A stretch of 64,000 bases of DNA from Cellvibrionaceae bacterium (GTDB lineage: Bacteria > Pseudomonadota > Gammaproteobacteria > Pseudomonadales > Cellvibrionaceae): contig JAILXR010000001.1 in assembly GCA_050789445.1 (NCBI GenBank), forward strand, positions 37,009-101,008, in the 5' to 3' direction. The notes beneath the pieces were generated by a model. That model was not told where the DNA came from and did not search any database. It worked only from the letters and a program-made list of their open reading frames with translations. Below, one piece after another: positions 3,496-49,859 of the stretch. Position 1 is the first letter of the stretch. Each line of letters begins with the position of its first letter. The translations under genes were made by a program, and so were the position numbers.

Positions 3496-3511
3496 TCGTG
3501 GTTTTATCAAA

Positions 3512-3541
3512 AAAATGCTGCCATAGGCGGCATTTTTTTTG
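3512..3541 (+). terminator. rho-independent terminator after the SDR gene
   Basis: aaaaaatgctgcc-ata-ggcggcatttttttt: a GC-rich stem with a 3' T-run. Confidence 0.65.
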
Positions 3542-6314: not shown

Positions 6315-6336
6315 AAATTAACTGATAAGTAAACAC

Positions 6337-6370
6337 AAAAAAGCCGAGGAATTTCTCGGCTTTTTTGTGT
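6337..6370 (+). terminator. rho-independent terminator after the TonB-receptor gene
   Basis: aaaaaagccgag-gaatttc-tcggctttttt. It overlaps the 5' end of track ORF 6367, which argues that the ORF's N-terminal extension is not real. Confidence 0.65.
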
Positions 6371-6480
6371 GTCGGAGGTCCTGTATTGAACTGCTTGTGC
6401 TCGCGCATATCTTAGGTGCTGTTTCTGGTGTAAGCTTTTCGTACATTGTTTTGGAAAATCATTTTTTGCAGATAAATTTT

Positions 6481-25553: not shown

Positions 25554-25571
25554 TTTATTTCTCTTAAATGT

Positions 25572-30932: not shown

Positions 30933-31016
30933 TGTCTTTGTCCTTCCAGCAAATGAAGAGAATAAATGTGGGGTGAGGAGATGTAGATAACCTCACTCCG
31001 TATTTATTGAGATTGG

Positions 31017-32984: not shown

Positions 32985-33001
32985 AATGAACTCCTTTCTG
33001 T

Positions 33002-33691: not shown

Positions 33692-33737
33692 GTGTAGCTC
33701 CTTTTAATTGTTATTTTTCGTCAGCCGTTTTTTTAGG

Positions 33738-34433: not shown

Positions 34434-34443
34434 GTTTGTTCTC

Positions 34444-35070
34444 CTAAGCTTCTATTGCTATGTTAAGAAACTCGCTATATGCCTCTGTCGCTTGTATGAC
34501 ATTACTCGCTAAAGTTTCGATTTCGAAAATCACATTTGAAAGTGTCGATATGGAGCTAAGTGCGCCGAACATGTGATAGTAATCCTGTCCGTCTCCAATT
34601 GTGTCTAAGCTTATCGTTGAGAGAGGGAAATACTTATGTGTTCTCAGTATTGCTTTATTAAATCGATCAACGTCATTGACGGCAGTGACAGGCCATAAAA
34701 CAGATTCCGCAATTATCTGCTCACCAGAAACTGTCAAAAAAACTGGGAGGTCTCCATACTCGTGCATCATTATATGCAAAGCTGGTTCTACGCCGTCTAT
34801 AAGTTCGGCGGAAGACTGCCCGCTTTGGAGTAGATCTGACTCTAGGAGTTCTTTGTAAAGAGTTTCAGTCGTCCAAGCTTTATCGTTGCTAATCATACTT
34901 GCTCCTTTGTTTATTGTAAGGCCCCCGCGGGCTGTTCGAAGTTCTTTTTCCATAATGCTTAACGTTTTTGAGTTTTCAGGAAGAATCCATACCTCTTTTT
35001 TAATAAGGCCTTGTTCGCGAAGACGCTTTCGAAATTCTCTTTGGTAGTGTGCTGATGACTTTGGTTTCAT
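34444..35070 (-). CDS. hypothetical protein, first gene of the operon (basic N-terminus; possibly YjfI/DUF2170-like)
   Basis: 208 aa. It lies 10 nt upstream of the PspA-family gene. The N-terminus is basic (KSSAHYQREFRKRLREQGLIKK) and could be an RHH/DNA-binding segment. In E. coli the PspA paralogue yjfJ follows yjfI. Homology is not verifiable from sequence alone. Confidence 0.3.
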   Translation of the reverse strand: MKPKSSAHYQREFRKRLREQGLIKKEVWILPENSKTLSIMEKELRTARGGLTINKGASMISNDKAWTTETLYKELLESDLLQSGQSSAELIDGVEPALHIMMHEYGDLPVFLTVSGEQIIAESVLWPVTAVNDVDRFNKAILRTHKYFPLSTISLDTIGDGQDYYHMFGALSSISTLSNVIFEIETLASNVIQATEAYSEFLNIAIEA

Positions 35071-35407: not shown

Positions 35408-36367
35408 ATGTCTTATATGCATCGAGATGGAGTGAAGTTGTCTGCTGAAAGGATTGGTTATCGCTATAACGGCACTGTTAAAGCGGCTTTAAGTGATGTG
35501 TCAATTGTGTTTGAGTCGGGTTCTTGTTGTGGCATTTTGGGGCCAAATGGTGCGGGTAAGACCACTTTGCTATCGCTTCTGGTCGGCGTATTACCTATTC
35601 AGCGGGGAAGCTTATCGTTTGGAGGCGAGAAAAAAACGAATAAGGAAATTAAAAGTTCATCCGCTATTGTTCCTCAAGATTATGCCTTTTATCCCTCGTT
35701 AACTGGAAAAGAAAATCTCGATTTTTTTTCGGGTTTGTACGGTTTGTCTGGCGACAAAAAAAAGTCTCGCATTAATGACGTTGTCGATGTTTGTGGTTTG
35801 GCTGATGTTTTAGATAAGTACTCATCTCAGTATTCTGGTGGTATCAAGCGTCGTCTGAACTTGGCGATTGGTTTGTTGAGTGATCCTGACATTCTTTATC
35901 TTGACGAGCCGACTGTGGGGATTGATGCTCAATCACGCCGTTTTATTTTGTCCGCAATTAACAATTTGAAGGCGAAAGGTAAAACCATTGTTTATACGTC
36001 GCATTATATGGAAGAGATCGAGGCTATTTGCGACGACATTGTTATCATTGATCATGGCAAGTTACTGTTACAGAAAAAATTATCAGATATTTTGGGTGGA
36101 GAAAATGACAAGCTAGTCAAAGTTACATCTACTTTTCCTCCGAGTGTCGCCCAGATTGAAAAGCTTGGAACATTGTCAATTCGTCATATTTCTGGCTGTG
36201 AATTTTCTGCTTCAGCGAATCGTGCCAACTCTTCAGTTTTAGATTCTACGCAACAAATCTTCGATAGCTTTAATCAATGCGGTCTAGAGGTCGGTGCATT
36301 TAGCTATGGTGCTGACCGACTTGAAGATATTTATTTGTCTCTGACAAAAGAAAAGTTGAGAGATTAG
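35408..36367 (+). CDS. ABC transporter ATP-binding protein (ABC-2 exporter type)
   Basis: Walker A GPNGAGKTT, signature YSGGIKRRLNLAIGL, Walker B ILYLDEPTVGID. 319 aa. Confidence 0.85.
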   Translation: MSYMHRDGVKLSAERIGYRYNGTVKAALSDVSIVFESGSCCGILGPNGAGKTTLLSLLVGVLPIQRGSLSFGGEKKTNKEIKSSSAIVPQDYAFYPSLTGKENLDFFSGLYGLSGDKKKSRINDVVDVCGLADVLDKYSSQYSGGIKRRLNLAIGLLSDPDILYLDEPTVGIDAQSRRFILSAINNLKAKGKTIVYTSHYMEEIEAICDDIVIIDHGKLLLQKKLSDILGGENDKLVKVTSTFPPSVAQIEKLGTLSIRHISGCEFSASANRANSSVLDSTQQIFDSFNQCGLEVGAFSYGADRLEDIYLSLTKEKLRD

Positions 36368-37578
36368 TGAATATGAAATTATTTATTCAGCTGTCTTCTG
36401 TTTTCAAAAAAGAAATTTTATTGTTGGTGCGAGATCTTCATGGTTTGGTATTGTTATTTTTGATGCCTGCTGTTTTTATTGTGATTATGTCGCTGGCAAT
36501 GCAGCAAAATTTTTCGGCAAGAGATCAAGTGAAATTACCGGTTCTAGTCAGTGATCTTGCGGATAATGATGATTCTCGGGCACTGCTAAAAAATTTAGCC
36601 GATACGGAAGTTTTTGAATTCTTGTTTGCTGATGATATTTTTGAATTAAAAAGTAACGATGAACTTCTTGGTTATGTTCAAAAAGACAAAGCAGCTTTTC
36701 TTATAAAAATTTATACACTTCCAGAAGATGATGAAGAAACAAATACAATTGGTGTTGAATTACTGGTAGCTCCGGCAACATCTAAGCAGACCGAAATGAT
36801 ATTTGTGGCTGCACTTCGAGAGTCTTTGCGCGGTGTTAAAGTAGAAAAAATGCTTGACGATTTTGACGATGATACATTTGGTGATGAATCATTAGAAGAG
36901 TTGGCCGCTGTCGTGTTGGATGTAAATTATGCCTACGGCGGCGGTCAGGAATTATCTCCGTCGTCTGTTCAGCAAAATGTTCCTGCATGGCTAGTTTTTG
37001 CTATGTTTTTTGTGGTCGTGCCTCTTTCGAATACACTCATTAAAGAGCGCCAGTTGGGAACGCTGAAGCGATTGAAAACAATTCCAGTCTCTCCAGTGAT
37101 TTTGATTTTGGGCAAATTGCTCCCCTATTTTATTGTGATGCAGTTGCAAGTGGTTTGCATGATTGCTGTTGGGATTTTTGTTGTCCCAATGTTGGGAGGC
37201 GATCAACTGGAAATGGGGTCCTCTTTTACTGCGTTGGCTTTAATTTCTTTTGCATTGAGTTTGGCTGCGTTGGGGTATGCTTTTTTAATTGCAGTGATTA
37301 CTAAAACAACCGAGCAAGCAACTATGTTGGGTGGGGCAGGAAATATTATATTGGCCGCATTAGGTGGCATCATGATTCCTAAATTTGTTATGCCGATGTC
37401 GATGCAAAAAATCAGTGAATGGTCGCCGATGAATTGGGGGCTTGAAGGGTTTCTGGATGTGTTTTTGAGAAATGGAGACGCAACTCTCGTGTTATCAAAA
37501 GCGGCAATGCTAGGCGGCCTAGGTATATTTTTAATTGTGATTGCATCGCTTGTGATGGCAAAGCGAAATGAAGCTTAA
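36367..37578 (+). CDS. ABC-2 family transporter permease
   Basis: 403 aa. A ~180-aa extracytoplasmic N-terminal region is followed by 6 predicted TM helices typical of ABC-2 permeases. GTG 36367 overlaps the ATPase stop (TAGTG). Alternative ATG at 36373. Confidence 0.75.
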   Translation: MNMKLFIQLSSVFKKEILLLVRDLHGLVLLFLMPAVFIVIMSLAMQQNFSARDQVKLPVLVSDLADNDDSRALLKNLADTEVFEFLFADDIFELKSNDELLGYVQKDKAAFLIKIYTLPEDDEETNTIGVELLVAPATSKQTEMIFVAALRESLRGVKVEKMLDDFDDDTFGDESLEELAAVVLDVNYAYGGGQELSPSSVQQNVPAWLVFAMFFVVVPLSNTLIKERQLGTLKRLKTIPVSPVILILGKLLPYFIVMQLQVVCMIAVGIFVVPMLGGDQLEMGSSFTALALISFALSLAALGYAFLIAVITKTTEQATMLGGAGNIILAALGGIMIPKFVMPMSMQKISEWSPMNWGLEGFLDVFLRNGDATLVLSKAAMLGGLGIFLIVIASLVMAKRNEA

Positions 37579-37650
37579 TCGTTGTATATAGAACACATAA
37601 AGTGTTTGAACGAAACAAAAAAGAAAATCGAAATAAATTGGAAGTTCGAA

Positions 37651-37923
37651 ATGAATAAAAATCAGTTAATTGCAGAGCTCAAAAAAATGATCATTGAAGA
37701 ATGTGATAAAGATATTGAGCCAGAAGAGATTAAAGATGATGAGCAGTTAATTGGTGGTGGTGATTTGGATTTGGATTCTCTGGATGCATTGCAAATATCA
37801 ATGTCTGTTCAAAAAAAGTACGGTGTTAGAATTGAAAATGGACCCGATGCAAAAAAAGCGTTGCGCACTGTAGATTCTTTAGCTGAAAAGATTTTAGCTG
37901 ATCTACCTGAAAATAAATCATAG
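37651..37923 (+). CDS. acyl carrier protein
   Basis: 90 aa from ATG 37651 (the track ORF starts earlier at 37582). The phosphopantetheine-attachment motif is GGDLDLDSLDALQISMSVQKKYG, a DSLD-type serine. Confidence 0.7.
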   Translation: MNKNQLIAELKKMIIEECDKDIEPEEIKDDEQLIGGGDLDLDSLDALQISMSVQKKYGVRIENGPDAKKALRTVDSLAEKILADLPENKS

Positions 37924-37939
37924 GTGTAAGGAAGGATCC

Positions 37940-39220
37940 ATGAAGCCTATTCATATTATCGGTACGGGACTGCATACCGCGTTAGGTTCGAGTACAGCTG
38001 AATGTGTCACTGCTTTGCGTGAACATGGCGTTACTAAAAAGCCTAGCGCTAGCGTAGCTTCTTTAAGCTGTACCTTGCCAAACAATGAAATAACAATTCC
38101 TTATTATCTTCTTGCAAAAACGCCTACTCGCGATGTACACGTTCGGTTCAATGATGTTTTGTTTGATGTTGTTTCTCAAGCCATAAGCGAAGCTGGTCTA
38201 TCAGAGTCAGCATTAAATAATATAGGCTTGTTTGTTGGGTCATCATCATTTGAAATAGCTGATGAAGAGGAGCGATTTAAAAAAACGCTGTGTGAGAAAG
38301 ATGCTTTCCCGCTTGCCGAGTGCGGTATGGGGAATCTATCAGAGCGTGTAAGAAAGCATTTTAATATTAGCGGCCCTGACTTTACGTTTAATACGGCCTG
38401 CACCTCTAGCGCAAATGCAATGCTGTATGCGGGGCAATTAATTGATCAAGGTGTGATTGAAAATGCTCTGGTTGTTGCTGTTGAGTTTTCAAATGACACA
38501 ACAACGTATGGTTTTTATGGCTTGCAGTTGCTGAGTCAAAATGCGTTGTTGCCGTTTGATGATAGGCGTGATGGTTTAATACTTGGTGAAAGTTGTGCGG
38601 CTGCTATTTTATCTGGTCCCGATTCGAGTAGTAGCGAATGGCATGATCAAAATCTACAGGACAAAAGCCTTCCAGAAAAAAACGTTCTGAGAAAAAACAA
38701 AGCAAAGATCAGATTATTAGGCGGCGCAAATTTATGTGATACGCATAGCATGTCTATTACTCATGAAGATGGTGACGTTGTAGCGCAAGTGATTTCTTCA
38801 GCGCTTAAAAATGCGGGAGTTTCTTCAAGGGATATATCTGTAATCAAGTGTCATGGAACAGCGACAATGGGTGGGGATGCCGCAGAAGCTAATGGTATGA
38901 GGCGTGCTTTTGAGTCAGTTGAAAAATTTCCGCAGTGCTGTGCCATCAAGCCGTTTATAGGTCACACGCTTGGTGCCTGCGGTTTGTCGGAATTTATTTT
39001 ATTTTGTGGTGCCGTTCAGCAAGGTTTTATTCCAACCTCAAAAGGGATTGCAGAAAAGGGAAATGAATTGGGTATTGTTTTGAATCAGGAATTAACCCTA
39101 GAGAAAGGCGAAAAAATAAATCAGCCTATTTTGGGTAGGTATTTATTAAATTATTTTGGTTTTGGTGGGAATAATACCAGCCTTGTTGCCGATATAGTGG
39201 ATGGTGATAATCGTGGTTAA
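37940..39220 (+). CDS. beta-ketoacyl-ACP synthase (KAS I/II-like ketosynthase)
   Basis: 426 aa. The active-site Cys is in NTACTSSANAM. The catalytic His residues are in KCHGTATMGGDAAE and GHTLGACG. Confidence 0.85.
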   Translation: MKPIHIIGTGLHTALGSSTAECVTALREHGVTKKPSASVASLSCTLPNNEITIPYYLLAKTPTRDVHVRFNDVLFDVVSQAISEAGLSESALNNIGLFVGSSSFEIADEEERFKKTLCEKDAFPLAECGMGNLSERVRKHFNISGPDFTFNTACTSSANAMLYAGQLIDQGVIENALVVAVEFSNDTTTYGFYGLQLLSQNALLPFDDRRDGLILGESCAAAILSGPDSSSSEWHDQNLQDKSLPEKNVLRKNKAKIRLLGGANLCDTHSMSITHEDGDVVAQVISSALKNAGVSSRDISVIKCHGTATMGGDAAEANGMRRAFESVEKFPQCCAIKPFIGHTLGACGLSEFILFCGAVQQGFIPTSKGIAEKGNELGIVLNQELTLEKGEKINQPILGRYLLNYFGFGGNNTSLVADIVDGDNRG

Positions 39221-40196
39221 TCTTTTAAAAAGCCAAAGCGAAAACCAAAATGAAAAGTCTGGTGCTCCGAAAGTAGAGGGCGTGAAACTTCAGATTCTTT
39301 CAATGGGGCAATACATAGAAAAGGTTGATGAGAGTAGTGATAATCCACTACCTGAATTAAAAACACTGGTAAAAGAATCGACAGGAAAAGCAATTCGAAG
39401 AATTACTCGTTTTGTCCAATTGGCATTGATCGGCGCAAGTCGTTGCTGCAAAGATATTGAAATTGATAAAAGTGCGAGTGTGTATTTTGCTTCTTGCCGG
39501 GGCGATACCGGTGTAACGGTTGATTTGTTGAATGGTTTAGTTCGAGATCAGCAACCTCCAGCACCTTTGTCGTTTGTTAATTCAGTGAGTAATGCAGCTT
39601 GTTTTCAGGTAGCAAAGTCCGTTGATGTTTTTGGTGGAAGTAATTTTATTACGAATCGATATGACCCAATTTTTGCGGCATTACAGTTGGCTCAATCTGA
39701 TTTTATACTAGGGTCAGCATCGTCGGCGTTGATCGGTAGCGTTGATTGTTGTTCTTTGCCGCTTGATGAGCACCGAAGAAGAGTTGATTTGAGTACGAAT
39801 CAGGGGTTAGTTGAAGCGAGTAACTGGCTTTTAATTGCGAGCTTGTCAGCGGAACAGGAAAGCGCTCAGAATCAAACCTCAATTGGCGTCATCGAAGATC
39901 TTCGATATTTTTCAAATTTGGAATTACTAATCAATTGGCTAAAAACAAAAGATTTTTTAGCGGATATTGTATTAGGTATTGGTCAGCATCTTCCTGAGGG
40001 GGATGTACAGTCCATCATGAAGGAGGGGAGTATTGATTCTCGCTTTGATTATGTTGGTCGTGACGGTCACTACGATAGCCCAACAGGCGAGGGGATTATT
40101 CGTTTTTTAAAAGAGCATACAGCGACCATGATGTTGCATGTTAATTCTGATCCCTCAGGTCGCTTTACGGTTTTTATGGTCTGCCGAAACCGCTAA
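39201..40196 (+). CDS. ketosynthase-like protein lacking the active-site Cys (chain-length-factor / KS-beta-like partner)
   Basis: 331 aa. It overlaps the KS gene by 20 nt. The thiolase-like region VNSVSNAACFQVAKS has N/A at the position of the KS nucleophilic Cys. No His-His pair is present. The start may be downstream (Met at 39300). Confidence 0.5.
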   Translation: MVIIVVNLLKSQSENQNEKSGAPKVEGVKLQILSMGQYIEKVDESSDNPLPELKTLVKESTGKAIRRITRFVQLALIGASRCCKDIEIDKSASVYFASCRGDTGVTVDLLNGLVRDQQPPAPLSFVNSVSNAACFQVAKSVDVFGGSNFITNRYDPIFAALQLAQSDFILGSASSALIGSVDCCSLPLDEHRRRVDLSTNQGLVEASNWLLIASLSAEQESAQNQTSIGVIEDLRYFSNLELLINWLKTKDFLADIVLGIGQHLPEGDVQSIMKEGSIDSRFDYVGRDGHYDSPTGEGIIRFLKEHTATMMLHVNSDPSGRFTVFMVCRNR

Positions 40197-40208: not shown

Positions 40209-41231
40209 TTACCACATCTTTTTCAGTAAGTTCCACACCTCTAATTCTTTATCGGCGCACTTGTTGATAATGTTGTTGAGCTCTGTTGCATCCATGGGTT
40301 TTCGTTTGCGAGACATTTTACTGGCTTGTAGAGCAAAGTTACGCCATTGATCTCCAGCATCTGTCATTTTTTCTGATGCTTCTATTAATAGATCATGATG
40401 AGTATATTGTGCGGCCTCTCGTAAAAATGCAGCATAAATAAATCGAAAGCCGGCGCCGCCAGTTCCTATTTCTTCTTGCATTCTAACAATGTGGCTTAGG
40501 TAAAGCGGTAAATATTCTTCTCTTTTCTTGGGATTCTTTTCGAGTTTGATTAGGTTTTTACCTAGATAGCGAATTCCCCGTACACCGACAATAGGGATTG
40601 GTGCTTTCGCCATAATTTTATAGTTTGATTTTATCGCTTTAGGAATAACAGTAGCGTAATCAATTTCTGAAGGAATGTGTTCTGGGTAATACATCAAACC
40701 TTTTGCTGCCATAGCTCCTTTTGCAAAGCGCGCTTTTTTTAAGCCTTCTTTTTCACAGGTTTGTGAAGTTTCAAAAACGGGGTCGCTGACAAAATAATTT
40801 TTTTCATCTTTGCCGTACACTAATAAATTGTGAGCGTTGAAGTGAAAGCGCATTTCTTGTGGAAAATAAGGGAGCCAGTAAACACTGGTTTGCAATCCAA
40901 CTAATTTTTCTTGTTCTATGAGCCTATCTAATTCTGCCATGCCCTCATCGGGGTTCCGAAAAGTTTGGAAGTGCATTTTTAAGCCAATGCGTTTTTGTAA
41001 TCCTTTAATAATCCATTTTGGGGGCATGCGATAAGCTATGAGTGGCATGCCGGATAATTTTACAAAAGGAATGTAGGCAAATGTCAGTGCGTTTGATAAA
41101 CCAAAAGCCATGGGTTCTGTCATCGGCAAGCCATAATGCGTCAACATGGATGAGATGACACCGCTCTCACAGTGAGCCGATTGCTTATGGTTGAAATGAT
41201 TGTTTTTAGGAGTCTGGGTTTGTGAGTTCAT
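40209..41231 (-). CDS. BtrH_N/DUF4872-like protein (putative ACP-dependent acyltransferase, papain-like fold)
   Basis: 340 aa with an N-terminal HCESGVISSMLTHYG putative Cys nucleophile. Length and layout are consistent with BtrH-like proteins. The assignment is by pattern recall, not by search. Confidence 0.45.
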   Translation of the reverse strand: MNSQTQTPKNNHFNHKQSAHCESGVISSMLTHYGLPMTEPMAFGLSNALTFAYIPFVKLSGMPLIAYRMPPKWIIKGLQKRIGLKMHFQTFRNPDEGMAELDRLIEQEKLVGLQTSVYWLPYFPQEMRFHFNAHNLLVYGKDEKNYFVSDPVFETSQTCEKEGLKKARFAKGAMAAKGLMYYPEHIPSEIDYATVIPKAIKSNYKIMAKAPIPIVGVRGIRYLGKNLIKLEKNPKKREEYLPLYLSHIVRMQEEIGTGGAGFRFIYAAFLREAAQYTHHDLLIEASEKMTDAGDQWRNFALQASKMSRKRKPMDATELNNIINKCADKELEVWNLLKKMW

Positions 41232-41335
41232 GTTTGTTTATCAGTATTGTTAGGAGGTTTGAACTTGGCTGTGTATTCGCAGCTATGCTTTCCCCGGCAC
41301 TTTAATCGCTAGCTTTTGGGTGTTTTGAATAGTTT

Positions 41336-41749
41336 TTAACTAGCAGAAAATTCATCCGGCAAAGTGTTGAGATCTTCTTTCGATAGGCCTAGCGCATCGC
41401 AATATTTATCGATGTTTTTTTGAGAGAGTTTTTTGAACGAGTCAGGTTTAAAATGCCTACGAATACGCCATTGAAAAAAGCCAGTTGCTTGCGAAAGGAG
41501 AGCAAGATCCATTCGGCAATTAAACATATGGAACTCAAGCGGCGCTGAAATGCCGTCTCTACCGCGTTGCCATGCAGCTTGCCTGTCGGCATTGATGACA
41601 TTGATCGCGTCTTGAGTTGCTTCGCCTTCTACATCCCATCCAGTCGATTGTACGCCGGTGTATTCGCCATCATTCTCGACAGCGTAAAATAATTTTTGGT
41701 GACCGGCGTAGGTCGAAATGTTGTCTTGCGGGACTTCGTCTTTTTTCAT
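41336..41749 (-). CDS. hypothetical protein (137 aa) within the resorcinol-type cluster
   Basis: Clean ORF between the BtrH-like gene and darB, on the same strand. No recognisable motif. Confidence 0.5.
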   Translation of the reverse strand: MKKDEVPQDNISTYAGHQKLFYAVENDGEYTGVQSTGWDVEGEATQDAINVINADRQAAWQRGRDGISAPLEFHMFNCRMDLALLSQATGFFQWRIRRHFKPDSFKKLSQKNIDKYCDALGLSKEDLNTLPDEFSAS

Positions 41750-41791: not shown

Positions 41792-42943
41792 TTAAGCGAC
41801 GGTCAAACTCATCATAGCTGAAGAAAAGCGACCGCTTTCAGGAATGTAACATAGCAATCGTTGGCCTGATTGTAATTTTCCTGAGTTGTAGAGCTCTTCT
41901 AGCATGATATAAATAGATGCAGAGCCAGTATTGCCTTTTTCTGGGAGATTGGTAAACCACTTCTCTTTTGGAATATCTAGGCCCACTCGCTGAATGCTTT
42001 CTTGTACCCCTTTAGCGAAAAAATTCGATGAATAGTGAGGAATAAAATAATCGAATTGATCAGCCGTTAAATTGTAGCGCGCTATTAGGTCAGTTAAGGG
42101 TTTTTCGACAGTGTAATGCAAAACATTTTCATTCAATAATTTCACATCTTGCTTAACAGAAAGTACTGATTGCTCATTACGCTCGTTACTGTTGAAGTTT
42201 TGCCAGCCTGTCATCGTGCCATCTTCATTTTTAACCGCGCCAGCGTACATGCAAGTTTCCATTTCTCCGGCATAAGAATAAAGGTGCAGCCAGTCTACTC
42301 GAAGAGATAGGCGATCAGGAGCAGGTTGGGGTTGAAGCAACATGGCGCCCGCGCCATCAGATAACATCCAGCGCAAAAAATCTTTTTCGAACGCGAGTTC
42401 AGGCTGAGTTTCTAATTGGTTTAATTTTGCTTCTGTTTCAGCAGCAAAATTATTCGCCGTCATCACACCTGAAGACAGTTCTGATCCAGTGGCGATTGCA
42501 TTTTTATATTCGCCACTCAAAATTCCTAGATAAGCATATTTAAAAGCCGTCATTCCCGCTAAGCAAACACCGCTTGTCGCAACAACTTCGCAAGGGTGTA
42601 ATCCCAGCTCGCCTTGAACCATCACCGCATGATTTGGCATTAACTGATCGGCAATAGATGTTCCGCTAGCGAGGCAATCAATGTCGTCAAGTTGAATGGT
42701 ATCTTTGGTGACATTTTTTATTGCCTCAGCTGTGAGCTGTGCATTCGAGTAGTTGTGCTTTAGTGTTTTAGGATCGATGGCATAGTAACGTTGTTTAATG
42801 CCGTTGCTTCGCAGAATAGTTCTACGCGCTCTAGAGGGGCGAACGCCTACTTGTCCCAAAAGCGATTCCATGTCGTTGTTGTCGACGGGATCGTTGGGTA
42901 GAAAAGCTCCAATGTTTGTAATATAAACTGCGTTGTCTGGCAT
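41792..42943 (-). CDS. darB: FabH-like ketosynthase (KAS III family), DarB-type condensing enzyme
   Basis: 383 aa KAS III fold. The active-site Cys is in ATSGVCLAGMTAF. It lies immediately downstream of a DarA-like gene, as in dialkylresorcinol/cyclohexanedione darAB loci. Confidence 0.7.
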   Translation of the reverse strand: MPDNAVYITNIGAFLPNDPVDNNDMESLLGQVGVRPSRARRTILRSNGIKQRYYAIDPKTLKHNYSNAQLTAEAIKNVTKDTIQLDDIDCLASGTSIADQLMPNHAVMVQGELGLHPCEVVATSGVCLAGMTAFKYAYLGILSGEYKNAIATGSELSSGVMTANNFAAETEAKLNQLETQPELAFEKDFLRWMLSDGAGAMLLQPQPAPDRLSLRVDWLHLYSYAGEMETCMYAGAVKNEDGTMTGWQNFNSNERNEQSVLSVKQDVKLLNENVLHYTVEKPLTDLIARYNLTADQFDYFIPHYSSNFFAKGVQESIQRVGLDIPKEKWFTNLPEKGNTGSASIYIMLEELYNSGKLQSGQRLLCYIPESGRFSSAMMSLTVA

Positions 42944-42981: not shown

Positions 42982-43929
42982 TTAAATCCTGTGCGTCTCT
43001 TCACCCGAGGGTGCTGCAAAATACGCTTTTTGTTCGGCCGTTCTTTTTTTTAATAATGGCGAAAATAGTCTTTTCAAAATCGCAGAAATCGGAACGACGG
43101 TTAAAATCATTGTGATTAAAAATAAAATATAAAAAACGAGCACAAATTTTCGGATGACCGATTGCTGATTGCCAAGACTACGTAATAGTTTGCCCCAAAT
43201 CTCAAAACTTCGGCGTGCAATTTTTTCAGATGCAATTAATCTTTCGTTAACTTCAACAGCGCCTAATCCTTTCAGTGTCGGCTCTGTTATTTTTGATGAT
43301 GTTTTTTCTAATTCTTCTTTTATCGCTACGCCGAATCGTCTTGAGTCGACTATATCTCTTTCGCTTACGCCAGCTCTCGGTATTAATCCATCAAGCCAAG
43401 GCCCTTTGTTACCAGTGAGTACCCAGAGCGGAGTAGCGATAAATGTAGCCGCGCTATGCGCTTCATCAGTCAATACAATATTGTCGATGAGTGTTGCTGA
43501 CAGATTTTTTAATTTTTCTTTAACTATTTCTTGCGCCGTTATCCACATGTTGCGGCAGCCAATAACGGTGATGACTGGAGTATCTTTAAAAATATGTTTG
43601 GCTTCTTCTGAATTTAAAAAAGTGCTAATAGGTCGAGAGGGTGAAAGGAACCATACTTGGTAAGATAAAATGATCAGGTCAAACTTTTCATCTGAAATTG
43701 CTAGAGGTTTTAGTTCTATATTTTCTTCGTAAACTGTCTCGGGAAAATTATTGAAAAACGATAAAAAAGGCCAAGGAAATGGAAATGCGATTACAGGCTC
43801 GATGCTTTTGTAAACAACATCAATATCACTGGCGTCTTTGAGTGGAGCAATAATGGAATTCACTATGCGAGTTAGTTGCCCAGTTTGGGAGTAGCCCAAT
43901 ACGAGCACGCGTTTTTTCATTTCTTGCAT
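42982..43929 (-). CDS. darA: dialkylresorcinol-condensing-enzyme-like protein DarA (flavodoxin-like)
   Basis: 315 aa. The N-terminus is KKRVLVLGYSQTGQLTRIV, a flavodoxin-like fold. The C-terminus has a hydrophobic helix. It matches my memory of DarA family proteins that pair with FabH-like DarB. Confidence 0.6.
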   Translation of the reverse strand: MQEMKKRVLVLGYSQTGQLTRIVNSIIAPLKDASDIDVVYKSIEPVIAFPFPWPFLSFFNNFPETVYEENIELKPLAISDEKFDLIILSYQVWFLSPSRPISTFLNSEEAKHIFKDTPVITVIGCRNMWITAQEIVKEKLKNLSATLIDNIVLTDEAHSAATFIATPLWVLTGNKGPWLDGLIPRAGVSERDIVDSRRFGVAIKEELEKTSSKITEPTLKGLGAVEVNERLIASEKIARRSFEIWGKLLRSLGNQQSVIRKFVLVFYILFLITMILTVVPISAILKRLFSPLLKKRTAEQKAYFAAPSGEETHRI

Positions 43930-44188
43930 GTTTCCGTCATTGTCTCGTCATGGGGTGGTCGTCACTTTTGCGCGCTGTTATCAGTAGCGAACTGCGTGTT
44001 ACGAATTTAGGGCCAAAGTGGCTGTTTGTTTAGTCTGTAGGCGACCCCGATTATGTACCAAATTGATCGAGGCTGCAGGAAAAACAGCTGTGGATTATGC
44101 CATAAGCGGGCGTGACCACTCTAGTAGTGACGGATAAAGTTCGTGTCTTTAGGTAAATCAATGCATATTCATTAACTGTAGGGAATAA

Positions 44189-47100
44189 TTACCAGGTGTC
44201 GACAAAGCTATTTGTCCTGAAATTACTATCCTGTGAGGTTTTATTGTTTTGAAGTGAGCTTTGGGTAGTCGCTTCTAATCCTCTCGCAATCCAGAGGCGA
44301 GTATCTTTGGGATCAATGACGTCATCTAAGTCAAAGTAGGAGGCAACATTGGTAGCTTTGCCGAGTTCATACATTGCAACCACTTTTTCTTGGTAGAAAG
44401 TTTCTCGCTCTTCAAGGTCATTAATAGCGGCTATTTCATTTCTGTAGCCCAGTTTAACGGCGCCTTCTAATCCCATTCCTCCAAATTCGCCAGTAGGCCA
44501 TGAGACGGTAAAGAATGGTGCTTTAAAGCTTCCTCCTGCCATTGTCTGAGCGCCAAGGCCGTATGCTTTACGAAGGATGATCGAAAAGAAAGGGACTTTA
44601 AGGGAGGCGCCAGCAATAAATAATCTTGCGGCATGTCGAACGAGTGCCGTTTTTTCTGCTTCGGGTCCCACCATGATTCCCGGCGTATCGCATAGGAACG
44701 TTACTGGAATATTGAAGGCATTGCAGAGTTGTAAAAAACGGGCCGCTTTGTCTGAACCAGGGCTGTCGATGGCACCGCCTAAATGAGCGGGGTTGTTTGC
44801 GACGATACCGACAGCTTTGCCTTCAATGCGAACAAAGGATGTCACTATTCCTGGTGCAAAGCCTTTTCGTAATTCTAAAACTGAGTCTGTATCGGCAAGT
44901 AATTCAATGACATTGCGAACATCATAAACTCGTAGGCGGTTTTCTGGGATGACAGTTCTTAATAAATACTGATCAGGGCATTCCCATTTCGTGAGATCAC
45001 CTTGAAAGTAACTTAAATATTTTTGTGCGGCAAAGACGGCTTCTTGTTCGTCCTTGACGGCTATATCAATCACACCATTGGGAATGTGGTCGCTAACCGG
45101 TCCGACTTCTTCTGGTTTGAAAACACCTAGGCCGCCACCTTCAATCATGGCGGGGCCGCCCATGCCAATGTTGGCATTTTCGGTAGCAATAATCACATCA
45201 GAGCAGCCGAGTAAAACGGCATTGCCCGCAAAGCATCGCCCGCTAACAATCCCGACTAGAGGGCAAGAGCCTTTGAGTTTTGCGTAGTCCCAAAAAGCTA
45301 AGCAGTCTAAACCACTGGCGCTGTTTCTTTCTGTTTCACCCGGACGGCCACCGCCTCCTTCTGCAAAAATAACAACGGGTAATCGCCATTGTTCCGCGAG
45401 CTCAAATAGACGATCTTTTTTTCGATGGTTTTTTTGCCCTTGGGTGCCCGCGAATACGGTGTAATCGTAAGACATGACAACGCATTGAGATTTTTCTTTT
45501 GAGAATAATTCTGCGTTGACTGTGCCCATTCCGCCGACTAATCCGTCAGCAGGTGTTTTTTCCATGAGCTCTTCTAGGGAGCGGCGGGCACGTTGCGCGG
45601 CAATAACCAGCGATCCATATTCAATAAAACTTCCTTCGTCGCAGAGGTGGTTAATATTTTCTCGAGTAGTTCTTTGCCCTGTTTTTCGGCGTCTTGCGAC
45701 CGCTTCTGGTCTGTTTTCATCAAGCCCGTAGCGGTGACGATCGATAACTTCTTGTAAGTCAGGGCGAATTTTATGTGGGTCTTGTACTTCGGTTTCGATA
45801 TTTTTAACATTTTGATCTTCAGAGGGGGTGATTGAAAGTAAAGGCGTGTTTTCAAAAAGAGTTTCACCGGCATTGGTTGCGATTTGAGTGATTTTCCCAC
45901 TAATTTTTGCAGTAATAACGTGTTCCATTTTCATGGACTCTATTATTAATAGCTCATCTCCTTTGTTGATGCTGTCATTAACCTTCACTTGAAGGCTAAC
46001 AATGGTTCCTTGAAGGGGAGATGAGACAACATGTTCGTCATCTGAAAATACTGAAGAGTTTTTCTGTGAAATATTTTTACTGGGATCGCTTTTTGATGTT
46101 GTTGGCGATGAGCTAATTGATTCTTTTTCACGAAACTTTTGCTCTTGTGTGACGAGATTGGCAACATTGTCGTCAATCCAGCGAGTATAAATATTCCAGT
46201 CTTTGACATCTTCTGTGTTCAAAATAGTCTGCAAAAACTGGGAGTTTGTTTTCACTCCTGACGTTTTAGAGTCACTTAAAGCTTTTGATGTTTTCTTTAA
46301 AAGGCTCTCCCATGAGTTGGATATATTTCTCGAAGAGCAAATAATTTTCGTGATTAGTGAGTCAAAGTTTGGATTGGTGGTGTAGCCGCTATATCCGAAT
46401 GTGTCTACGCGAACTCCTGGGCCTGTGGGAACAATAAAATGTTCTATTGTTCCCCCCTGTGGTTTTATATCGCCGTTTGCATCAATGGTTTCCATGTTGA
46501 TGCGTGCTTGAATGGCTTGCCCTTGAATTAATGGTGGGGTTTCTAAGTGAATTTCTTTCAGCGTTTTATTCGCTGCAATTTCTAATTGTATGTTGATCAA
46601 ATCTATGTGAGTGATTTCTTCGGTGATGGTATGTTCGACTTGCAGGCGAGGATTGGCTTCAATAAAGAAAAAGTTGTTGGATTCTACATCAACTAAAAAT
46701 TCGAAGGTGCCTATGTTGTTATACCCTGATTTTTTTGCCATCAATACAGCCGCTTCGAGAATGCTTTCTCTTGTCGAATCATTTAGATTGGGGCTGGGAG
46801 CAACTTCAATAATTTTTTGATGGCGGCGTTGAATACTGCAATCTCTATCCCATGCATGAATTACATTGCCATGATTGTCGGCTATTATTTGGATTTCAAT
46901 GTGGCGCGCTTTTTCGATTAAAGCTTCGACATACACTTGTGCATTTCCAAAAGCGTTAAACGCTTCTGACTGGCATCGCTCAAAAGCTGATTCAATGTCA
47001 GACTCTTGATGAACTATGCGCATTCCTCTGCCGCCGCCGCCAGCAATGGCTTTTATCAGCATTGCGGCTTTTGTTTTTTTGTTGAGTAGCTGAAAAAACT

Positions 47101-47530
47101 CTTTTGCTTCCGAAAGGCTAGTTTCAGTTTGGGTGCCGGGTAAAACCGGAATGTTATGTTTCTGCGCAAATTGTCTTGCAGAAATTTTATCGCCAAATAA
47201 CGCAAGCTGTTGGTGTGTCGGCCCAACAAAAGTAATGCCGTTATCCGTGCACTTTTTTGCAAAATCAGCGTTTTCACTCAAGAATCCGTATCCGGGGTGG
47301 ATGGCGTCACATTTGTTTTCCTGTGCAATAGTTAGTATCTGTTGTGAGTCGAGGTAGGCGCTAGCTCCTTTGCCTTTAAGCGGTATAGCTTCATCTGCGT
47401 ATTGGTGATGAAGTGAGTTGTGATCGTCTTCAGAATAGATGGCGAGGGTTGAAATATTCATTTCTGCTGCAGTGCGACAAATTCGAATAGCAATTTCACC
47501 GCGATTGGCGATAAGTAGTTTTTTGAGCAT
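44189..47530 (-). CDS. multidomain biotin-dependent acyl-CoA carboxylase (biotin carboxylase + BCCP + carboxyltransferase in one 1,113-aa polypeptide)
   Basis: N-terminal biotin carboxylase (MLKKLLIANRGEIAIRICRTA...). Biotinyl domain with ELLIIESMKMEHVITA, an (A/S)MKM biotin-lysine motif. C-terminal ~520 aa are AccD/PccB-like carboxyltransferase with its conserved Gly-rich CoA/oxyanion motifs (FAEGGGGRPGET, FAGTQGQ). Confidence 0.85.
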   Translation of the reverse strand: MLKKLLIANRGEIAIRICRTAAEMNISTLAIYSEDDHNSLHHQYADEAIPLKGKGASAYLDSQQILTIAQENKCDAIHPGYGFLSENADFAKKCTDNGITFVGPTHQQLALFGDKISARQFAQKHNIPVLPGTQTETSLSEAKEFFQLLNKKTKAAMLIKAIAGGGGRGMRIVHQESDIESAFERCQSEAFNAFGNAQVYVEALIEKARHIEIQIIADNHGNVIHAWDRDCSIQRRHQKIIEVAPSPNLNDSTRESILEAAVLMAKKSGYNNIGTFEFLVDVESNNFFFIEANPRLQVEHTITEEITHIDLINIQLEIAANKTLKEIHLETPPLIQGQAIQARINMETIDANGDIKPQGGTIEHFIVPTGPGVRVDTFGYSGYTTNPNFDSLITKIICSSRNISNSWESLLKKTSKALSDSKTSGVKTNSQFLQTILNTEDVKDWNIYTRWIDDNVANLVTQEQKFREKESISSSPTTSKSDPSKNISQKNSSVFSDDEHVVSSPLQGTIVSLQVKVNDSINKGDELLIIESMKMEHVITAKISGKITQIATNAGETLFENTPLLSITPSEDQNVKNIETEVQDPHKIRPDLQEVIDRHRYGLDENRPEAVARRRKTGQRTTRENINHLCDEGSFIEYGSLVIAAQRARRSLEELMEKTPADGLVGGMGTVNAELFSKEKSQCVVMSYDYTVFAGTQGQKNHRKKDRLFELAEQWRLPVVIFAEGGGGRPGETERNSASGLDCLAFWDYAKLKGSCPLVGIVSGRCFAGNAVLLGCSDVIIATENANIGMGGPAMIEGGGLGVFKPEEVGPVSDHIPNGVIDIAVKDEQEAVFAAQKYLSYFQGDLTKWECPDQYLLRTVIPENRLRVYDVRNVIELLADTDSVLELRKGFAPGIVTSFVRIEGKAVGIVANNPAHLGGAIDSPGSDKAARFLQLCNAFNIPVTFLCDTPGIMVGPEAEKTALVRHAARLFIAGASLKVPFFSIILRKAYGLGAQTMAGGSFKAPFFTVSWPTGEFGGMGLEGAVKLGYRNEIAAINDLEERETFYQEKVVAMYELGKATNVASYFDLDDVIDPKDTRLWIARGLEATTQSSLQNNKTSQDSNFRTNSFVDTW

Positions 47531-47694: not shown

Positions 47695-48834
47695 GTGAAG
47701 AGCGTCGGTCAGCTAAAAATCAATTTGGCAGCTATTCAAAAAAATTGGCAACAGTTTGATCGATTGACCTCGTCAAACACTAATGTCGCTGCTGTGGTGA
47801 AGGCAGATGCTTATGGCCTAGGTGCAAAGCCGGTTGTAAAGGCATTGTTTGAAGAAGGTTGTAACAGTTTCTTTGTGGCCACATTGCGGGAAGCTTTTGA
47901 GGTTAAGTTGGCTGTGTCTGAGGTTGCTCCTATTGAGCAAAGAGCGCCGGATATTTATATTCTTAGCGCAATCAGGAAAGAAGATTTCCCGTCGTGTGTC
48001 GAAGAGGCTTTTATCCCCGTACTGTATTCGGTAGACCAAATAAAAAATTGGGCAGAATACTGCGTTGGCAACTCGATAGATCCACAGAGTGCGATTAAGG
48101 TAGATACTGGAATGCATCGGTTAGGCATTTCGAAATCTGAGCTTTTAGATTTAGTTGAAGAGGAAAAAACCTTAAGCGCGTGTCACCCAGTATTGATGAT
48201 GAGTCATCTTGCTTGCGCTGACGATAACGAGCATCCGTTGAATGAAGAGCAATTGCAGTGCTTTGAGGCGTGTGCGGAATCATTTAGATCGTTATTCCCT
48301 GAGATAAAGCTCAGCTTGTCGAATTCTTCAGGAGTGTTTTTGGGGGCTCAGTATCATTTTGATATTGTTCGGGCCGGGATCGGTTTGTATGGCGGCAACC
48401 CGGCACCTTATGAAAAATGTAAGATGTTGCCGGTTGTTAATCTTGACTTGCCAATTGCACAGGTTAAAGAAGTTGTCGGCCCTGCAGCGATTGGATACGG
48501 GGCAACGTTTGCTGTGTCAAAGAATGAAAAGATTAAGTTAGCTGTCGCCTTGGGGGGGTATGCTGACGGAATTTTTCGAAGTTTAAGTAATGCTGGTGAA
48601 GGATTTGTCGCTGGGAAAGCCGTACCTATGGTGGGGCGAGTTTCAATGGATAGTGTGATTTTTGACGTTTCTTGCATTGAAGATAATTTGCTAAAAAATG
48701 CTTCGGTATCTTTGATGGGGCCTGATCACGTGGTCGATAAGCTGGCAGGCGAGGCTAATACAATCAGCTATGAAATATTGACGAGTTTAGGTGATCGTTA
48801 TGATCGAAATTATGTCTATTCGATAGCTGGGTAA
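47695..48834 (+). CDS. alr: alanine racemase
   Basis: 379 aa. The PLP-lysine motif is AAVVKADAYGLG. The C-terminal motif is GRVSMDS. GTG start. Confidence 0.8.
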   Translation: MKSVGQLKINLAAIQKNWQQFDRLTSSNTNVAAVVKADAYGLGAKPVVKALFEEGCNSFFVATLREAFEVKLAVSEVAPIEQRAPDIYILSAIRKEDFPSCVEEAFIPVLYSVDQIKNWAEYCVGNSIDPQSAIKVDTGMHRLGISKSELLDLVEEEKTLSACHPVLMMSHLACADDNEHPLNEEQLQCFEACAESFRSLFPEIKLSLSNSSGVFLGAQYHFDIVRAGIGLYGGNPAPYEKCKMLPVVNLDLPIAQVKEVVGPAAIGYGATFAVSKNEKIKLAVALGGYADGIFRSLSNAGEGFVAGKAVPMVGRVSMDSVIFDVSCIEDNLLKNASVSLMGPDHVVDKLAGEANTISYEILTSLGDRYDRNYVYSIAG

Positions 48835-48890
48835 ATTGAACGGCTGTCTTTAAAAGATATCAATAATTTGAGAAAAAAGGTGTCGGCGAA

Positions 48891-49859
48891 ATGAGTGTAG
48901 AGCGCGTAATTGAATTGTTGGCCGATGGGGAAATCCAGTCTGGCGAAGAGCTGGGGAAATTACTTGGTGTCAGTCGTACAGCTGTTTGGAAGCAGCTTAA
49001 AAAAATTGAGGATTTTGGGCTTGAAGTTGAAGCGGTCAAAGGGAAAGGTTATCAACTGCTGGGTGGCATAGAATTATTATCGAAAGAGAAAATCCTCGGC
49101 AACTTGTCTGATGAAACAAAAAATCTTGTCCGTGAATTGGATATTCTTGGTTCTGTTGATTCAACAAACACTCTCGTTCTTGATAAGGCGAAATTGAGCA
49201 GTGCTCATGGGCATTTCTGCTTGGCTGAGCACCAAACGGCTGGTAGAGGTCGTCATGGCCGTCAGTGGGTTAGCCCTTATGGTAGAAATATTTACTTTTC
49301 GTGTGGGTGGGCTTTTTCGGGCGGTGCTGCTGTTTTAGAGGGGCTGAGTCTTGCTGTGGGGGTCGCTATCGTGAAAGCGCTGTCATCTTGTGGTGTTGAA
49401 GGCGTTCAGTTGAAGTGGCCTAACGACGTGTTGTGGCAAGGGAAAAAGCTAGCTGGTGTCCTGCTTGAAATGACAGGTGATGCTTCCGGGGAGTGTCAGG
49501 TCGTGATTGGTGTGGGCTTGAATGTCAGTATGGTTGATTCAGAAGCAAAAACTATCGAGCAACAATGGGTGAGCCTTGCCTCGATTCAGCCAGATATTTC
49601 TCGAAATAAATTGATTGCAGGCTTAATTCGTGAGTTAGCTTCGGTGTTGAATGGTTATCAACAAAAAGGGTTTTCCGCTTTGCGATCAGACTGGGAATCT
49701 CTTGATAGTTTTCGGGATAAAGAGGTTGAGATTAGGGTAGGCGATCAAGTGACACTTGGTGTTGTTAAAGGCGTGAGTGATAGTGGGGCGCTTCGGCTTC
49801 AGACAGAATCGGGTGAGCAGTTAATTTATGGCGGTGAAGCGAGTTTGAGATCAGCATGA
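48891..49859 (+). CDS. birA: bifunctional biotin--[acetyl-CoA-carboxylase] ligase / bio operon repressor
   Basis: N-terminal HTH (LGVSRTAVWKQLKKIEDFG). The BPL catalytic motif is QTAGRGRHGRQW, the GRGRxGRxW pattern. Confidence 0.9.
   Translation: MSVERVIELLADGEIQSGEELGKLLGVSRTAVWKQLKKIEDFGLEVEAVKGKGYQLLGGIELLSKEKILGNLSDETKNLVRELDILGSVDSTNTLVLDKAKLSSAHGHFCLAEHQTAGRGRHGRQWVSPYGRNIYFSCGWAFSGGAAVLEGLSLAVGVAIVKALSSCGVEGVQLKWPNDVLWQGKKLAGVLLEMTGDASGECQVVIGVGLNVSMVDSEAKTIEQQWVSLASIQPDISRNKLIAGLIRELASVLNGYQQKGFSALRSDWESLDSFRDKEVEIRVGDQVTLGVVKGVSDSGALRLQTESGEQLIYGGEASLRSA

What the first reader, a model, noticed from the sequence alone, without database searches (positions are those of the whole stretch)
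44189..47530. Single-polypeptide BC-BCCP-CT carboxylase (1,113 aa) embedded in the biosynthetic cluster, adjacent to birA
In most proteobacteria, biotin carboxylase, BCCP and carboxyltransferase are separate subunits. Here all three are fused. The N-terminus is BC, the middle is a biotinyl domain with an SMKM motif, and the C-terminus is an AccD/PccB-like CT. The fused enzyme sits at the head of the dar-like operon. It probably supplies a dedicated (methyl)malonyl-type extender, or carboxylates an unusual acyl-CoA. The biotin ligase gene birA lies 1.4 kb away on the other side of alr. That may be coincidental core synteny.
Basis: partly seen in the sequence, partly recalled or inferred. Interest (0 to 1): 0.5.

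Follow-up and report, generated by a model that had tools for sequence, protein, structure and literature searches.

The report
Known-type fused acyl-CoA carboxylase, neighbour gene

Summary
The ORF at 44189-47530 (minus strand, 1,113 aa) is real. Its domain order is BC, low-complexity linker, BCCP (ESMKME, Lys534), then acyl-CoA carboxyltransferase. [quoted passage not shown] The CT domain alone scores 654 and 614 bits against the two solved single-chain carboxylases, but at most 230 bits against PCC, ACC, MCC, GCC or transcarboxylase CTs. The fusion is therefore a new member of a known, widespread family.

The "dedicated supplier at the head of the dar operon" reading is not supported:
- None of 80 DarB loci from other species has such a carboxylase within 10 kb.
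- In seven close relatives the carboxylase is always beside alr. The dar genes follow directly in three, lie about 10 kb away in one, are not adjacent in two, and one contig ends.
- One relative has alr-birA directly beside dar with no carboxylase.
- A conserved extended -10-like motif (TGGCATAATC) lies upstream of darA whether or not the carboxylase is there.
- Three distant homologues are stand-alone genes in unrelated contexts.

birA lies in the classic birA-coaX-tRNA-tufB core block, so its proximity is synteny. Local co-option for DAR supply cannot be excluded. Interest is low.

The parts
44189..47530 (-). Gene for the single-chain acyl-CoA carboxylase (LCC family), 1,113 aa
   Evidence: ORF, translation. 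End-to-end match to 4RCN (query 3-1083, chain 3-1071, 1062 bits). A 100% identical protein, P0001, comes from a Cellvibrionaceae MAG.
46172..47530 (-). Biotin carboxylase (BC) domain, aa 1-453
   Evidence: Pfam Biotin_carb_N, CPSase_L_D2 and Biotin_carb_C. GGGGRG at 164 and EANPRLQVEH at 291.
46031..46171 (-). Low-complexity BC-BCCP linker, aa 454-500, too short to hold a BT domain
   Evidence: 77% of residues are S/T/P/N/Q/K/E/D, and identity to relatives is only 9-45%.
45830..46030 (-). BCCP (biotinyl) domain, aa 501-567. The biotinyl-Lys534 codon is at 45929-45931.
   Evidence: Pfam Biotin_lipoyl, 52 bits. ESMKME motif, with MKM starting at residue 533.
44246..45688 (-). Carboxyltransferase (CT) domain, aa 615-1095, LCC clade
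   Evidence: Pfam Carboxyl_trans, 266 bits. The CT alone scores 654 bits to 4RCN and 614 to 5FIF; the next best are 230 (12S transcarboxylase), about 200 (PCC beta) and about 130 (MCC/GCC). Identity to 4RCN is 59%.
44094..44102 (-). Conserved extended -10-like motif TGGCATAAT(C) upstream of darA. It lies 87 nt after the carboxylase stop and 165 nt before the darA ATG.
   Evidence: Invariant in the window and in L001, L003, L005, L006 and L043; the last two have no carboxylase upstream. An exact match occurs in 16 of 79 darA upstream regions against 0 of 79 coding controls.
42982..43929 (-). DarA-like gene (315 aa), not part of the carboxylase unit
   Evidence: No Pfam or NCBIfam hit. Homologues (41-91% identity, about 98% coverage) lie directly upstream of DarB in nearly all 80 loci, including the Pseudomonas loci L048, L068 and L073, which have only this gene plus DarB.
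41792..42943 (-). StlD/DarB-family ketosynthase (383 aa)
   Evidence: NF005293 scores 600 bits against a cut-off of 450.
41336..41749 (-). DarG-family protein (137 aa), equivalent to darD in the Azoarcus table
   Evidence: NF053536 scores 165 bits against a cut-off of 70. Nomenclature from PMC3949708.
40209..41231 (-). DarH, a BtrH-related acyltransferase (340 aa), equivalent to darE in the Azoarcus table
   Evidence: NF053550 scores 495 bits against a cut-off of 300. Pfam BtrH_N plus DUF4872.
35408..40196 (+). Convergent half of the dar module: ABC ATPase, ABC-2 permease, ACP, KS and a CLF-like protein
   Evidence: Pfam hits. These genes are found together with DarB in most of the 80 loci.
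47695..49859 (+). alr and birA, core genes transcribed divergently from the carboxylase
   Evidence: Pfam hits. alr is adjacent to the carboxylase in 7 of 7 close relatives.

Best explanation
[quoted passage not shown] The BC domain uses ATP and bicarbonate to carboxylate biotin on Lys534 of the BCCP domain. Two flexible linkers let the BCCP swing to the CT domain, which transfers the carboxyl group to the alpha-carbon of an acyl-CoA. By homology with the characterised enzyme, the likely properties are a homo-hexamer active on C2 to C16 acyl-CoAs with a preference for long chains (inferred, not tested here). In this Cellvibrionaceae lineage the gene is a long-standing resident of the alr-birA locus. 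It is most likely transcribed on its own from the divergent alr/LCC intergenic region. The dialkylresorcinol (dar) module next to it is a separate, self-contained unit with its own promoter-like element. The carboxylase is therefore a neighbour of the cluster, not a dedicated component. Shown: the architecture, the family membership, the uncoupling from dar in other genomes and the conserved darA upstream motif. Inferred: the substrate range, the oligomeric state and separate transcription.
For: Family: the protein aligns collinearly and end to end with 4RCN (1062 bits). The CT alone scores 654 and 614 bits to the two solved single-chain carboxylases and at most 230 to all other CTs, with 59% identity to 4RCN. 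The 120 best database clusters are all 1,091-1,192 aa with the same domains. Independence from dar: none of 80 DarB loci from other species has a BC or LCC hit within 10 kb, although DarA-DarB-DarG-DarH plus KS, CLF, ACP and ABC genes recur there. In Gilvimarinus about 10 kb of cytochrome oxidase, ABC and radical-SAM genes separate the carboxylase from a complete dar module. L004 has alr, the carboxylase and then unrelated genes with no dar. In L093 a radical-SAM gene follows the carboxylase. L043 has birA-alr directly beside dar with no carboxylase. alr is adjacent in 7 of 7 relatives. Three distant homologues are solitary genes in unrelated contexts. The LCC-darA gap is 259 nt against 38-104 nt inside the dar genes, and the TGGCATAATC motif is conserved upstream of darA regardless of the carboxylase. 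The published dar cluster has the same gene set and no carboxylase (PMC3949708). Composition is uniform, so neither block looks recently acquired.
Against: The carboxylase and the dar genes are on the same strand and directly adjacent in the window and in three relatives whose carboxylases are only 62-89% identical, so the adjacency is old. No intrinsic terminator was found in the 259-nt gap, so read-through into darA is possible. The dar module contains KS, CLF and ACP genes that need malonyl units, and DarB condenses fatty-acyl-derived thioesters, so a broad-range acyl-CoA carboxylase could plausibly feed it. Whether genomes with dar usually carry an LCC elsewhere was not tested.
Confidence: 0.75

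Rival explanations
1. Local co-option. In this Cellvibrionaceae clade the LCC-type carboxylase has been recruited to the dar pathway. It would be co-transcribed or co-regulated with darA-darH. It would supply either extra malonyl-CoA for the KS/CLF/ACP trio or an alpha-carboxylated medium or long-chain acyl-CoA (2-alkylmalonyl-CoA) as a decarboxylative nucleophile for DarB. The second route would resemble the use of carboxylated long-chain acyl-CoA in mycolic acid condensation.
For: Same strand and direct adjacency in the window and in L001, L003 and L005, across 62-89% carboxylase identity. No terminator in the gap. The family accepts C2-C16 substrates (PMC6491548). A precedent exists for long-chain carboxylation feeding a condensation reaction in mycobacteria (PMC13012033).
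Against: None of 80 dar loci elsewhere has any biotin carboxylase within 10 kb. Within the same clade the two are separated, the carboxylase occurs without adjacent dar, and dar occurs at the same locus without the carboxylase (L043). darA keeps its own conserved promoter-like motif. The gap is long compared with the spacing inside the dar genes.
Confidence: 0.13
2. Housekeeping acetyl-CoA carboxylase. The fused enzyme would be the main source of malonyl-CoA for fatty acid synthesis in this organism, replacing or backing up AccABCD.
For: The family has measurable acetyl-CoA activity (PMC6491548). A different multidomain carboxylase is the essential ACC of Saccharopolyspora (same paper). The position beside core genes is stable (alr adjacency in 7 of 7 relatives). 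The CT domain is strongly conserved in the clade (66-96%).
Against: For the characterised enzyme the Km for acetyl-CoA is about 350-fold higher than for palmitoyl-CoA (PMC6491548). A close relative lacks the gene at this locus (L043). Gammaproteobacteria generally carry accABCD (established knowledge, not testable in a 64-kb window). The Saccharopolyspora ACC belongs to a different, eukaryote-like fusion group.
Confidence: 0.07
3. Catabolic or anaplerotic acyl-CoA carboxylase used to grow on particular carbon or nitrogen sources, as proposed for the Pseudomonas homologue. This refines the best explanation more than it competes with it.
For: [quoted passage not shown] The solitary, context-free placement of distant homologues fits a self-sufficient metabolic enzyme.
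Against: No catabolic genes (acyl-CoA dehydrogenase, hydratase or mutase) are consistently adjacent in any locus examined. The primary paper could not be read.
Confidence: 0.05

Closest known systems
[quoted passage not shown]
   Same: The BC-linker-BCCP-linker-CT order is the same on one chain of about 1,100 aa. The alignment is collinear and end to end (1062 bits). CT identity is 59%. There is no BT domain between BC and BCCP. The biotinylation motif and the BC catalytic motifs are present.
   Different: The host is a gammaproteobacterial (Cellvibrionaceae) MAG. The linkers and C-terminal tail are unrelated low-complexity sequence. Substrate preference and hexameric state are untested. The genomic position next to a dar cluster has not been described for the family.
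Deinococcus radiodurans single-chain carboxylase (PDB 5FIF for the CT part, 5H80 for the BC part)
   Same: It is the second solved member of the same clade. CT scores 614 bits and BC 461 bits.
   Different: It is more distant than 4RCN over the full length. I could not find its characterisation in the held library.
Propionyl-CoA carboxylase and actinobacterial acyl-CoA carboxylases (PccB, AccD5 and similar beta subunits with a separate BC-BT-BCCP alpha subunit)
   Same: The chemistry and the CT fold are the same. The CT aligns over its full length.
   Different: They are two-subunit enzymes with a BT domain. CT scores are only about 190-230 bits against 654 for LCC, so this protein lies outside those clades.
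Mycobacterial multi-subunit 'LCC complex' (AccA3-AccD4-AccD5-AccE; PMC13012033)
   Same: The name and the ability to carboxylate long-chain acyl-CoA for a later condensation step are shared.
   Different: It is a hetero-oligomer of separate subunits, not a single chain. Its alpha subunit matches only the BC part of the query (367 bits), and the two beta subunits of that entry (9t97 chains D5a and D4a) score about 182-185 bits against the CT. It is dedicated to mycolic acid synthesis.
Eukaryote-like homodimeric multidomain ACC of Saccharopolyspora erythraea, SACE_4237 (PMC6491548)
   Same: It is a bacterial single-polypeptide acyl-CoA carboxylase.
   Different: It has a large central domain, forms a dimer, accepts short-chain substrates only and arose from an independent fusion event. 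The same paper places the LCC-type SACE_3154 in a separate CT group.
dar (dialkylresorcinol) gene cluster of Azoarcus sp. BH72 (PMC3949708)
   Same: The window's neighbouring genes match it in gene content, though the order differs: darA, darB, a conserved hypothetical, a BtrH-like protein, ABC ATPase, ABC permease, ACP, KS and a hypothetical.
   Different: That cluster, like the 80 loci surveyed here, contains no carboxylase.

Membership tests
[quoted passage not shown] | BC, BCCP and CT lie on one polypeptide of about 120 kDa, in that order | tested here: met
   Pfam domain order in a 1,113-aa protein.
[quoted passage not shown] | Collinear full-length homology to the founding member | tested here: met
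   One aligned stretch, query 3-1083 against chain 3-1071, 1062 bits.
[quoted passage not shown] | The CT domain belongs to the LCC clade and not to the PCC, ACC, MCC or GCC clades | tested here: met
   654 and 614 bits to the LCC-type CTs against at most 230 for any other. This is a score ranking, not a full phylogeny.
[quoted passage not shown] | No BT (BC-CT interaction) domain, only a short linker between BC and BCCP | tested here: met
   There are 47 low-complexity residues between Biotin_carb_C (ends at 453) and Biotin_lipoyl (starts at 501). That LCC lacks a BT domain is from my memory of the primary paper, which I could not read.
[quoted passage not shown] | A biotinylatable lysine in an (A/S)MKM motif and intact BC catalytic motifs | tested here: met
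   ESMKME with Lys534, GGGGRG at 164 and EANPRLQVEH at 291.
[quoted passage not shown] | Homo-hexameric holoenzyme with domain swapping | not testable with these tools
   This needs size-exclusion chromatography, cryo-EM or a multimer prediction.
[quoted passage not shown] | Kinetic preference for long-chain acyl-CoA (a much lower Km for C16 than for C2) | not testable with these tools
   The property of the characterised enzyme is reported in PMC6491548. It needs an enzyme assay.
dar (dialkylresorcinol) biosynthetic gene cluster, as a component | The gene recurs with darA and darB in dar clusters of other organisms | tested here: not met
   None of 80 DarB loci has a BC or LCC hit within 10 kb. 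One locus (L060) has a 30%-identity CT-only hit at its edge. The gene is absent from the published Azoarcus cluster.
dar (dialkylresorcinol) biosynthetic gene cluster, as a component | Presence and absence of the gene track the cluster among close relatives | tested here: not met
   The carboxylase occurs without adjacent dar (L004 and L093), dar occurs without the carboxylase (L043), and the two are split by about 10 kb in L002/L006.
dar (dialkylresorcinol) biosynthetic gene cluster, as a component | Co-transcription with the dar genes | tested here: inconclusive
   There is a 259-nt gap with a conserved promoter-like motif for darA, but no terminator was detected and the scan is at chance level. 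This needs RNA data.
   The NCBIfam pyruvate carboxylase and urea carboxylase models match only residues 2-467 and score far below cut-off (606 against 965, 489 against 1304). The C-terminal half is Pfam Carboxyl_trans.

The most novel reading that the evidence does not exclude
In one Cellvibrionaceae clade an LCC-type single-chain carboxylase has been captured by the dialkylresorcinol pathway. It would supply a 2-alkylmalonyl-CoA (or boosted malonyl-CoA) building block, giving the LCC family its first defined physiological role and adding a carboxylation step to DarB chemistry.
Probability: 0.12. Interest if true: 0.45.

Novelty: new member of a known kind. Interest (0 to 1): 0.15.

Why it matters
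The result mainly corrects an annotation and sets a cluster boundary. The carboxylase should be named an LCC-family single-chain acyl-CoA carboxylase, not the 'ATP-grasp domain-containing protein' label the MAG carries. The dar cluster boundary should be drawn at the darA promoter-like motif near 44.1 kb, not at 47.5 kb. The physiological role of bacterial single-chain LCCs is still poorly defined. A lineage in which one has sat next to a fatty-acyl-condensing pathway for a long time is a cheap place to test for a link, but the comparative evidence argues against a dedicated role.

Tried and rejected
- **Pyruvate or urea carboxylase:** rejected. Those NCBIfam models match only the BC domain and score below cut-off.
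- **PCC, ACC, MCC or GCC-type CT:** rejected on score ranking.
- **Operon signals:** the terminator and promoter consensus scan of 40-48 kb returned counts no higher than shuffled sequence, so it was not informative.
- **Sigma-54 reading of the motif:** considered for TGGCAT-N-GC upstream of darA. Judged by eye from the alignment, the GG-to-GC spacing is one base longer than the canonical -24/-12 spacing and the GC is absent in one of the six loci. The extended -10 reading (TGnCATAAT) fits better.
- **Horizontal acquisition:** tested by GC, GC3 and codon usage. Neither the carboxylase nor the dar block stands out.
- **Primary LCC paper:** PMC4319993 is not held, so its properties are cited through PMC6491548.
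- **Deinococcus carboxylase:** a search for papers on it found nothing.
- **Papers linking dialkylresorcinol, DarB and a carboxylase:** none found.
- **P0004:** its contig ends right after the carboxylase, so it says nothing about dar.
Full report
**Observation.**
- Pfam places the three biotin carboxylase domains at residues 1-453, a biotinyl domain at 501-567 and an acyl-CoA carboxyltransferase domain at 615-1095. All score far above threshold.
- The biotinylation motif is IIESMKMEH with Lys534.
- The BC glycine loop GGGGRG is at 164 and the EANPRLQVEH motif at 291.
- Two low-complexity linkers (454-500 and 568-614) join the domains. The first is too short to hold the BT domain found in PCC and MCC alpha subunits.

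**What the protein is.** It aligns in one collinear stretch (query 3-1083, chain 3-1071, 1062 bits) with PDB 4RCN, deposited as 'long-chain acyl-CoA carboxylase'. The next hits are the CT and BC fragments of the Deinococcus radiodurans single-chain carboxylase, 5FIF and 5H80.
- The C-terminal 545 residues (568-1113, which contain the CT domain) score 654 and 614 bits against those two.
- They score only 230 bits against transcarboxylase 12S, about 190-220 against PCC beta, AccD5 and similar subunits, and about 125-135 against MCC and GCC beta.
- Identity to the 4RCN CT is 59%.
- A secondary source says the LCC family carboxylates C2-C16 acyl-CoAs with a Km for palmitoyl-CoA about 350-fold lower than for acetyl-CoA. 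It also says the enzyme is a homo-hexamer and has been proposed to act in carbon and nitrogen metabolism (PMC6491548). The primary paper is not held.
- The family is large. Those that carry a source name come from Cellvibrionaceae, Gilvimarinus, Binataceae/Binatus, Chloroflexi and Anaerolinea.
- An identical protein comes from a Cellvibrionaceae MAG on a 3.68-Mb contig.

The fusion is therefore a new member of a known kind and not a new architecture.

**Surroundings.**
- *Downstream, same strand:* a DarA-like gene (42982-43929), StlD/DarB (41792-42943), a DarG-family gene (41336-41749) and the BtrH-related DarH (40209-41231).
- *Converging on these:* ABC ATPase, ABC-2 permease, ACP, KS and a CLF-like gene (35408-40196).
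- This gene set matches the dar cluster published for Azoarcus sp. BH72 in content, though not in order. That cluster contains no carboxylase (PMC3949708).
- *Upstream, divergent:* alr, birA and coaX, a SPOR-domain gene, four tRNAs, tufB, tRNA-Trp, secE, nusG, rplKAJL and rpoB. In this classic core block birA is expected next to the tufB region.

**Is the carboxylase part of the dar cluster? Starting from the dar side.** I built a DarB alignment and scanned one genome per GTDB species. The scan gave 596 confirmed hits, and the best 80 loci were kept with 10-kb flanks. I then searched each locus with every cluster protein from the window.
- The loci come from Gamma-, Alpha- and Betaproteobacteria, Campylobacterota, Desulfobacterota, Planctomycetota and Verrucomicrobiota.
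- DarA-DarB-DarG-DarH, usually with the KS, CLF, ACP and ABC genes, recurs in nearly all of them.
- No locus has a BC-domain or full LCC hit. One locus (L060) has a CT-only hit at 30% identity at its edge.

**Is the carboxylase part of the dar cluster? Starting from the carboxylase side.** I looked up the contigs of seven close relatives (62-89% identity).
- alr is adjacent in all seven.
- dar follows directly in three: L001, L003 and L005.
- In Gilvimarinus about 10 kb of cytochrome oxidase, ABC and radical-SAM genes lie between the carboxylase and a complete dar module.
- L004 has unrelated genes and no dar.
- In L093 a radical-SAM gene follows the carboxylase before the contig ends.
- L092 ends at the carboxylase and is uninformative.
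- Conversely, L043 (DarB 76% identical) has birA-alr directly beside the dar module with no carboxylase.
- Three distant homologues (about 55% identity) are solitary genes in unrelated neighbourhoods.

The two units are gained, lost and separated independently.

**Transcription signals.**
- The carboxylase-darA gap is 259 nt, against 38, 42 and 104 nt between the dar genes.
- Aligning the darA upstream regions of the window and five relatives reveals an invariant TGGCATAATC, which reads as an extended -10 element (TGnCATAAT). It is present in L006 and L043, where no carboxylase lies upstream.
- The exact nonamer occurs upstream of darA in 16 of 79 loci (Pseudomonas species, Steroidobacteraceae and Cellvibrionaceae) against 0 of 79 coding controls.
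- In the window it lies at 44102-44094 on the minus strand.
- This points to a dar-specific promoter. However, no terminator was detected after the carboxylase, and the consensus scan is at chance level, so read-through cannot be excluded.
- GC, GC3 and codon usage are uniform across the carboxylase, the dar genes and the core genes.

**Interpretation.** The best-supported account (confidence about 0.75) is an LCC-family carboxylase that has long resided at the alr-birA locus of this Cellvibrionaceae clade, with a self-contained dar module beside it.
- *Mechanism:* BC carboxylates biotinyl-Lys534, and the swinging BCCP delivers the carboxyl group to the CT domain. This follows from family membership.
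- *Substrate range and hexameric state:* both are inferred.
- *Main rival, local co-option for DAR precursor supply (about 0.13):* the adjacency is old and on the same strand, there is no detectable terminator, and a broad-range acyl-CoA carboxylase next to a fatty-acyl-condensing pathway is chemically plausible.
- *Housekeeping ACC (about 0.07) and a purely catabolic role (about 0.05):* both remain possible but cannot be tested in a 64-kb window.

**Verdict.**
- The fusion, the acyl-CoA CT type and the coincidental birA position are right.
- The implied novelty of the fusion and the 'dedicated extender supplier at the head of the dar operon' reading are not supported.
- Novelty is 'new member of a known kind', and interest is low (0.15).
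- The most novel reading still open is clade-specific recruitment of an LCC to dialkylresorcinol synthesis, with probability about 0.12 and moderate interest if true.

Noticed in passing
window 44094-44102 (minus strand); also L010, L021, L025, L027, L031, L051, L053, L054, L056, L072, L076 upstream of darA: An exact TG(T)GGCATAATC motif, which reads like an extended -10 element, lies upstream of darA in 16 of 79 dar loci from Pseudomonas, Steroidobacteraceae and Cellvibrionaceae, against 0 of 79 coding controls. It may be a conserved dar promoter or regulator site.
   Followed up: partly
window 25014-35070: This block holds a Zn-ribbon protein, a 1,786-aa DUF3686 plus AAA ATPase, unknown proteins of 655 and 229 aa, PspA and DUF2170. 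In relative L003 the dar ABC ATPase is followed directly by the Zn_ribbon_8 and formamidase genes, so this roughly 10-kb block is variable between close relatives.
   Followed up: no
window 898-7290 compared with L004: In relative L004 the CDP-alcohol phosphatidyltransferase, TonB receptor, SDR, thiolase and MaoC genes lie just beyond the carboxylase and a radical-SAM gene. The window's 7.3-44 kb stretch (rRNA operon, two-component system, amide transporter and formamidase, DUF3686 block, dar module) is therefore absent or rearranged in that genome.
   Followed up: no
window 44189-47530 (protein level): Within the clade the CT domain is much more conserved (66-96% identity) than the BC domain (53-89%). 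The BC-BCCP linker is almost unalignable (9-45%).
   Followed up: partly
window 47695-49859 and loci L001-L005, L043: alr diverges much faster than the adjacent birA among the same relatives (39-68% against 64-83% identity).
   Followed up: no
window 40209-41749: Gene names clash. NCBIfam calls these genes DarG family and DarH, while the Azoarcus paper (PMC3949708) calls the equivalent genes darD and darE and uses darG and darH for a toxin-antitoxin pair.
   Followed up: partly
L007-L086: The dar module (DarA, DarB, DarG, DarH plus KS, CLF, ACP and ABC genes) gave 596 confirmed hits in the scan of GTDB species genomes. The loci kept include Planctomycetota, Verrucomicrobiota, Campylobacterota and Desulfobacterota. 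This is a very wide spread for a cluster whose product is characterised in few organisms.
   Followed up: no
L002 4970-5353 and L043 4748-5215: A small ORF (127 and 155 aa, no Pfam hit on record for the L002 one) lies between alr and the next gene in two relatives but not in the window. I did not compare the two.
   Followed up: no
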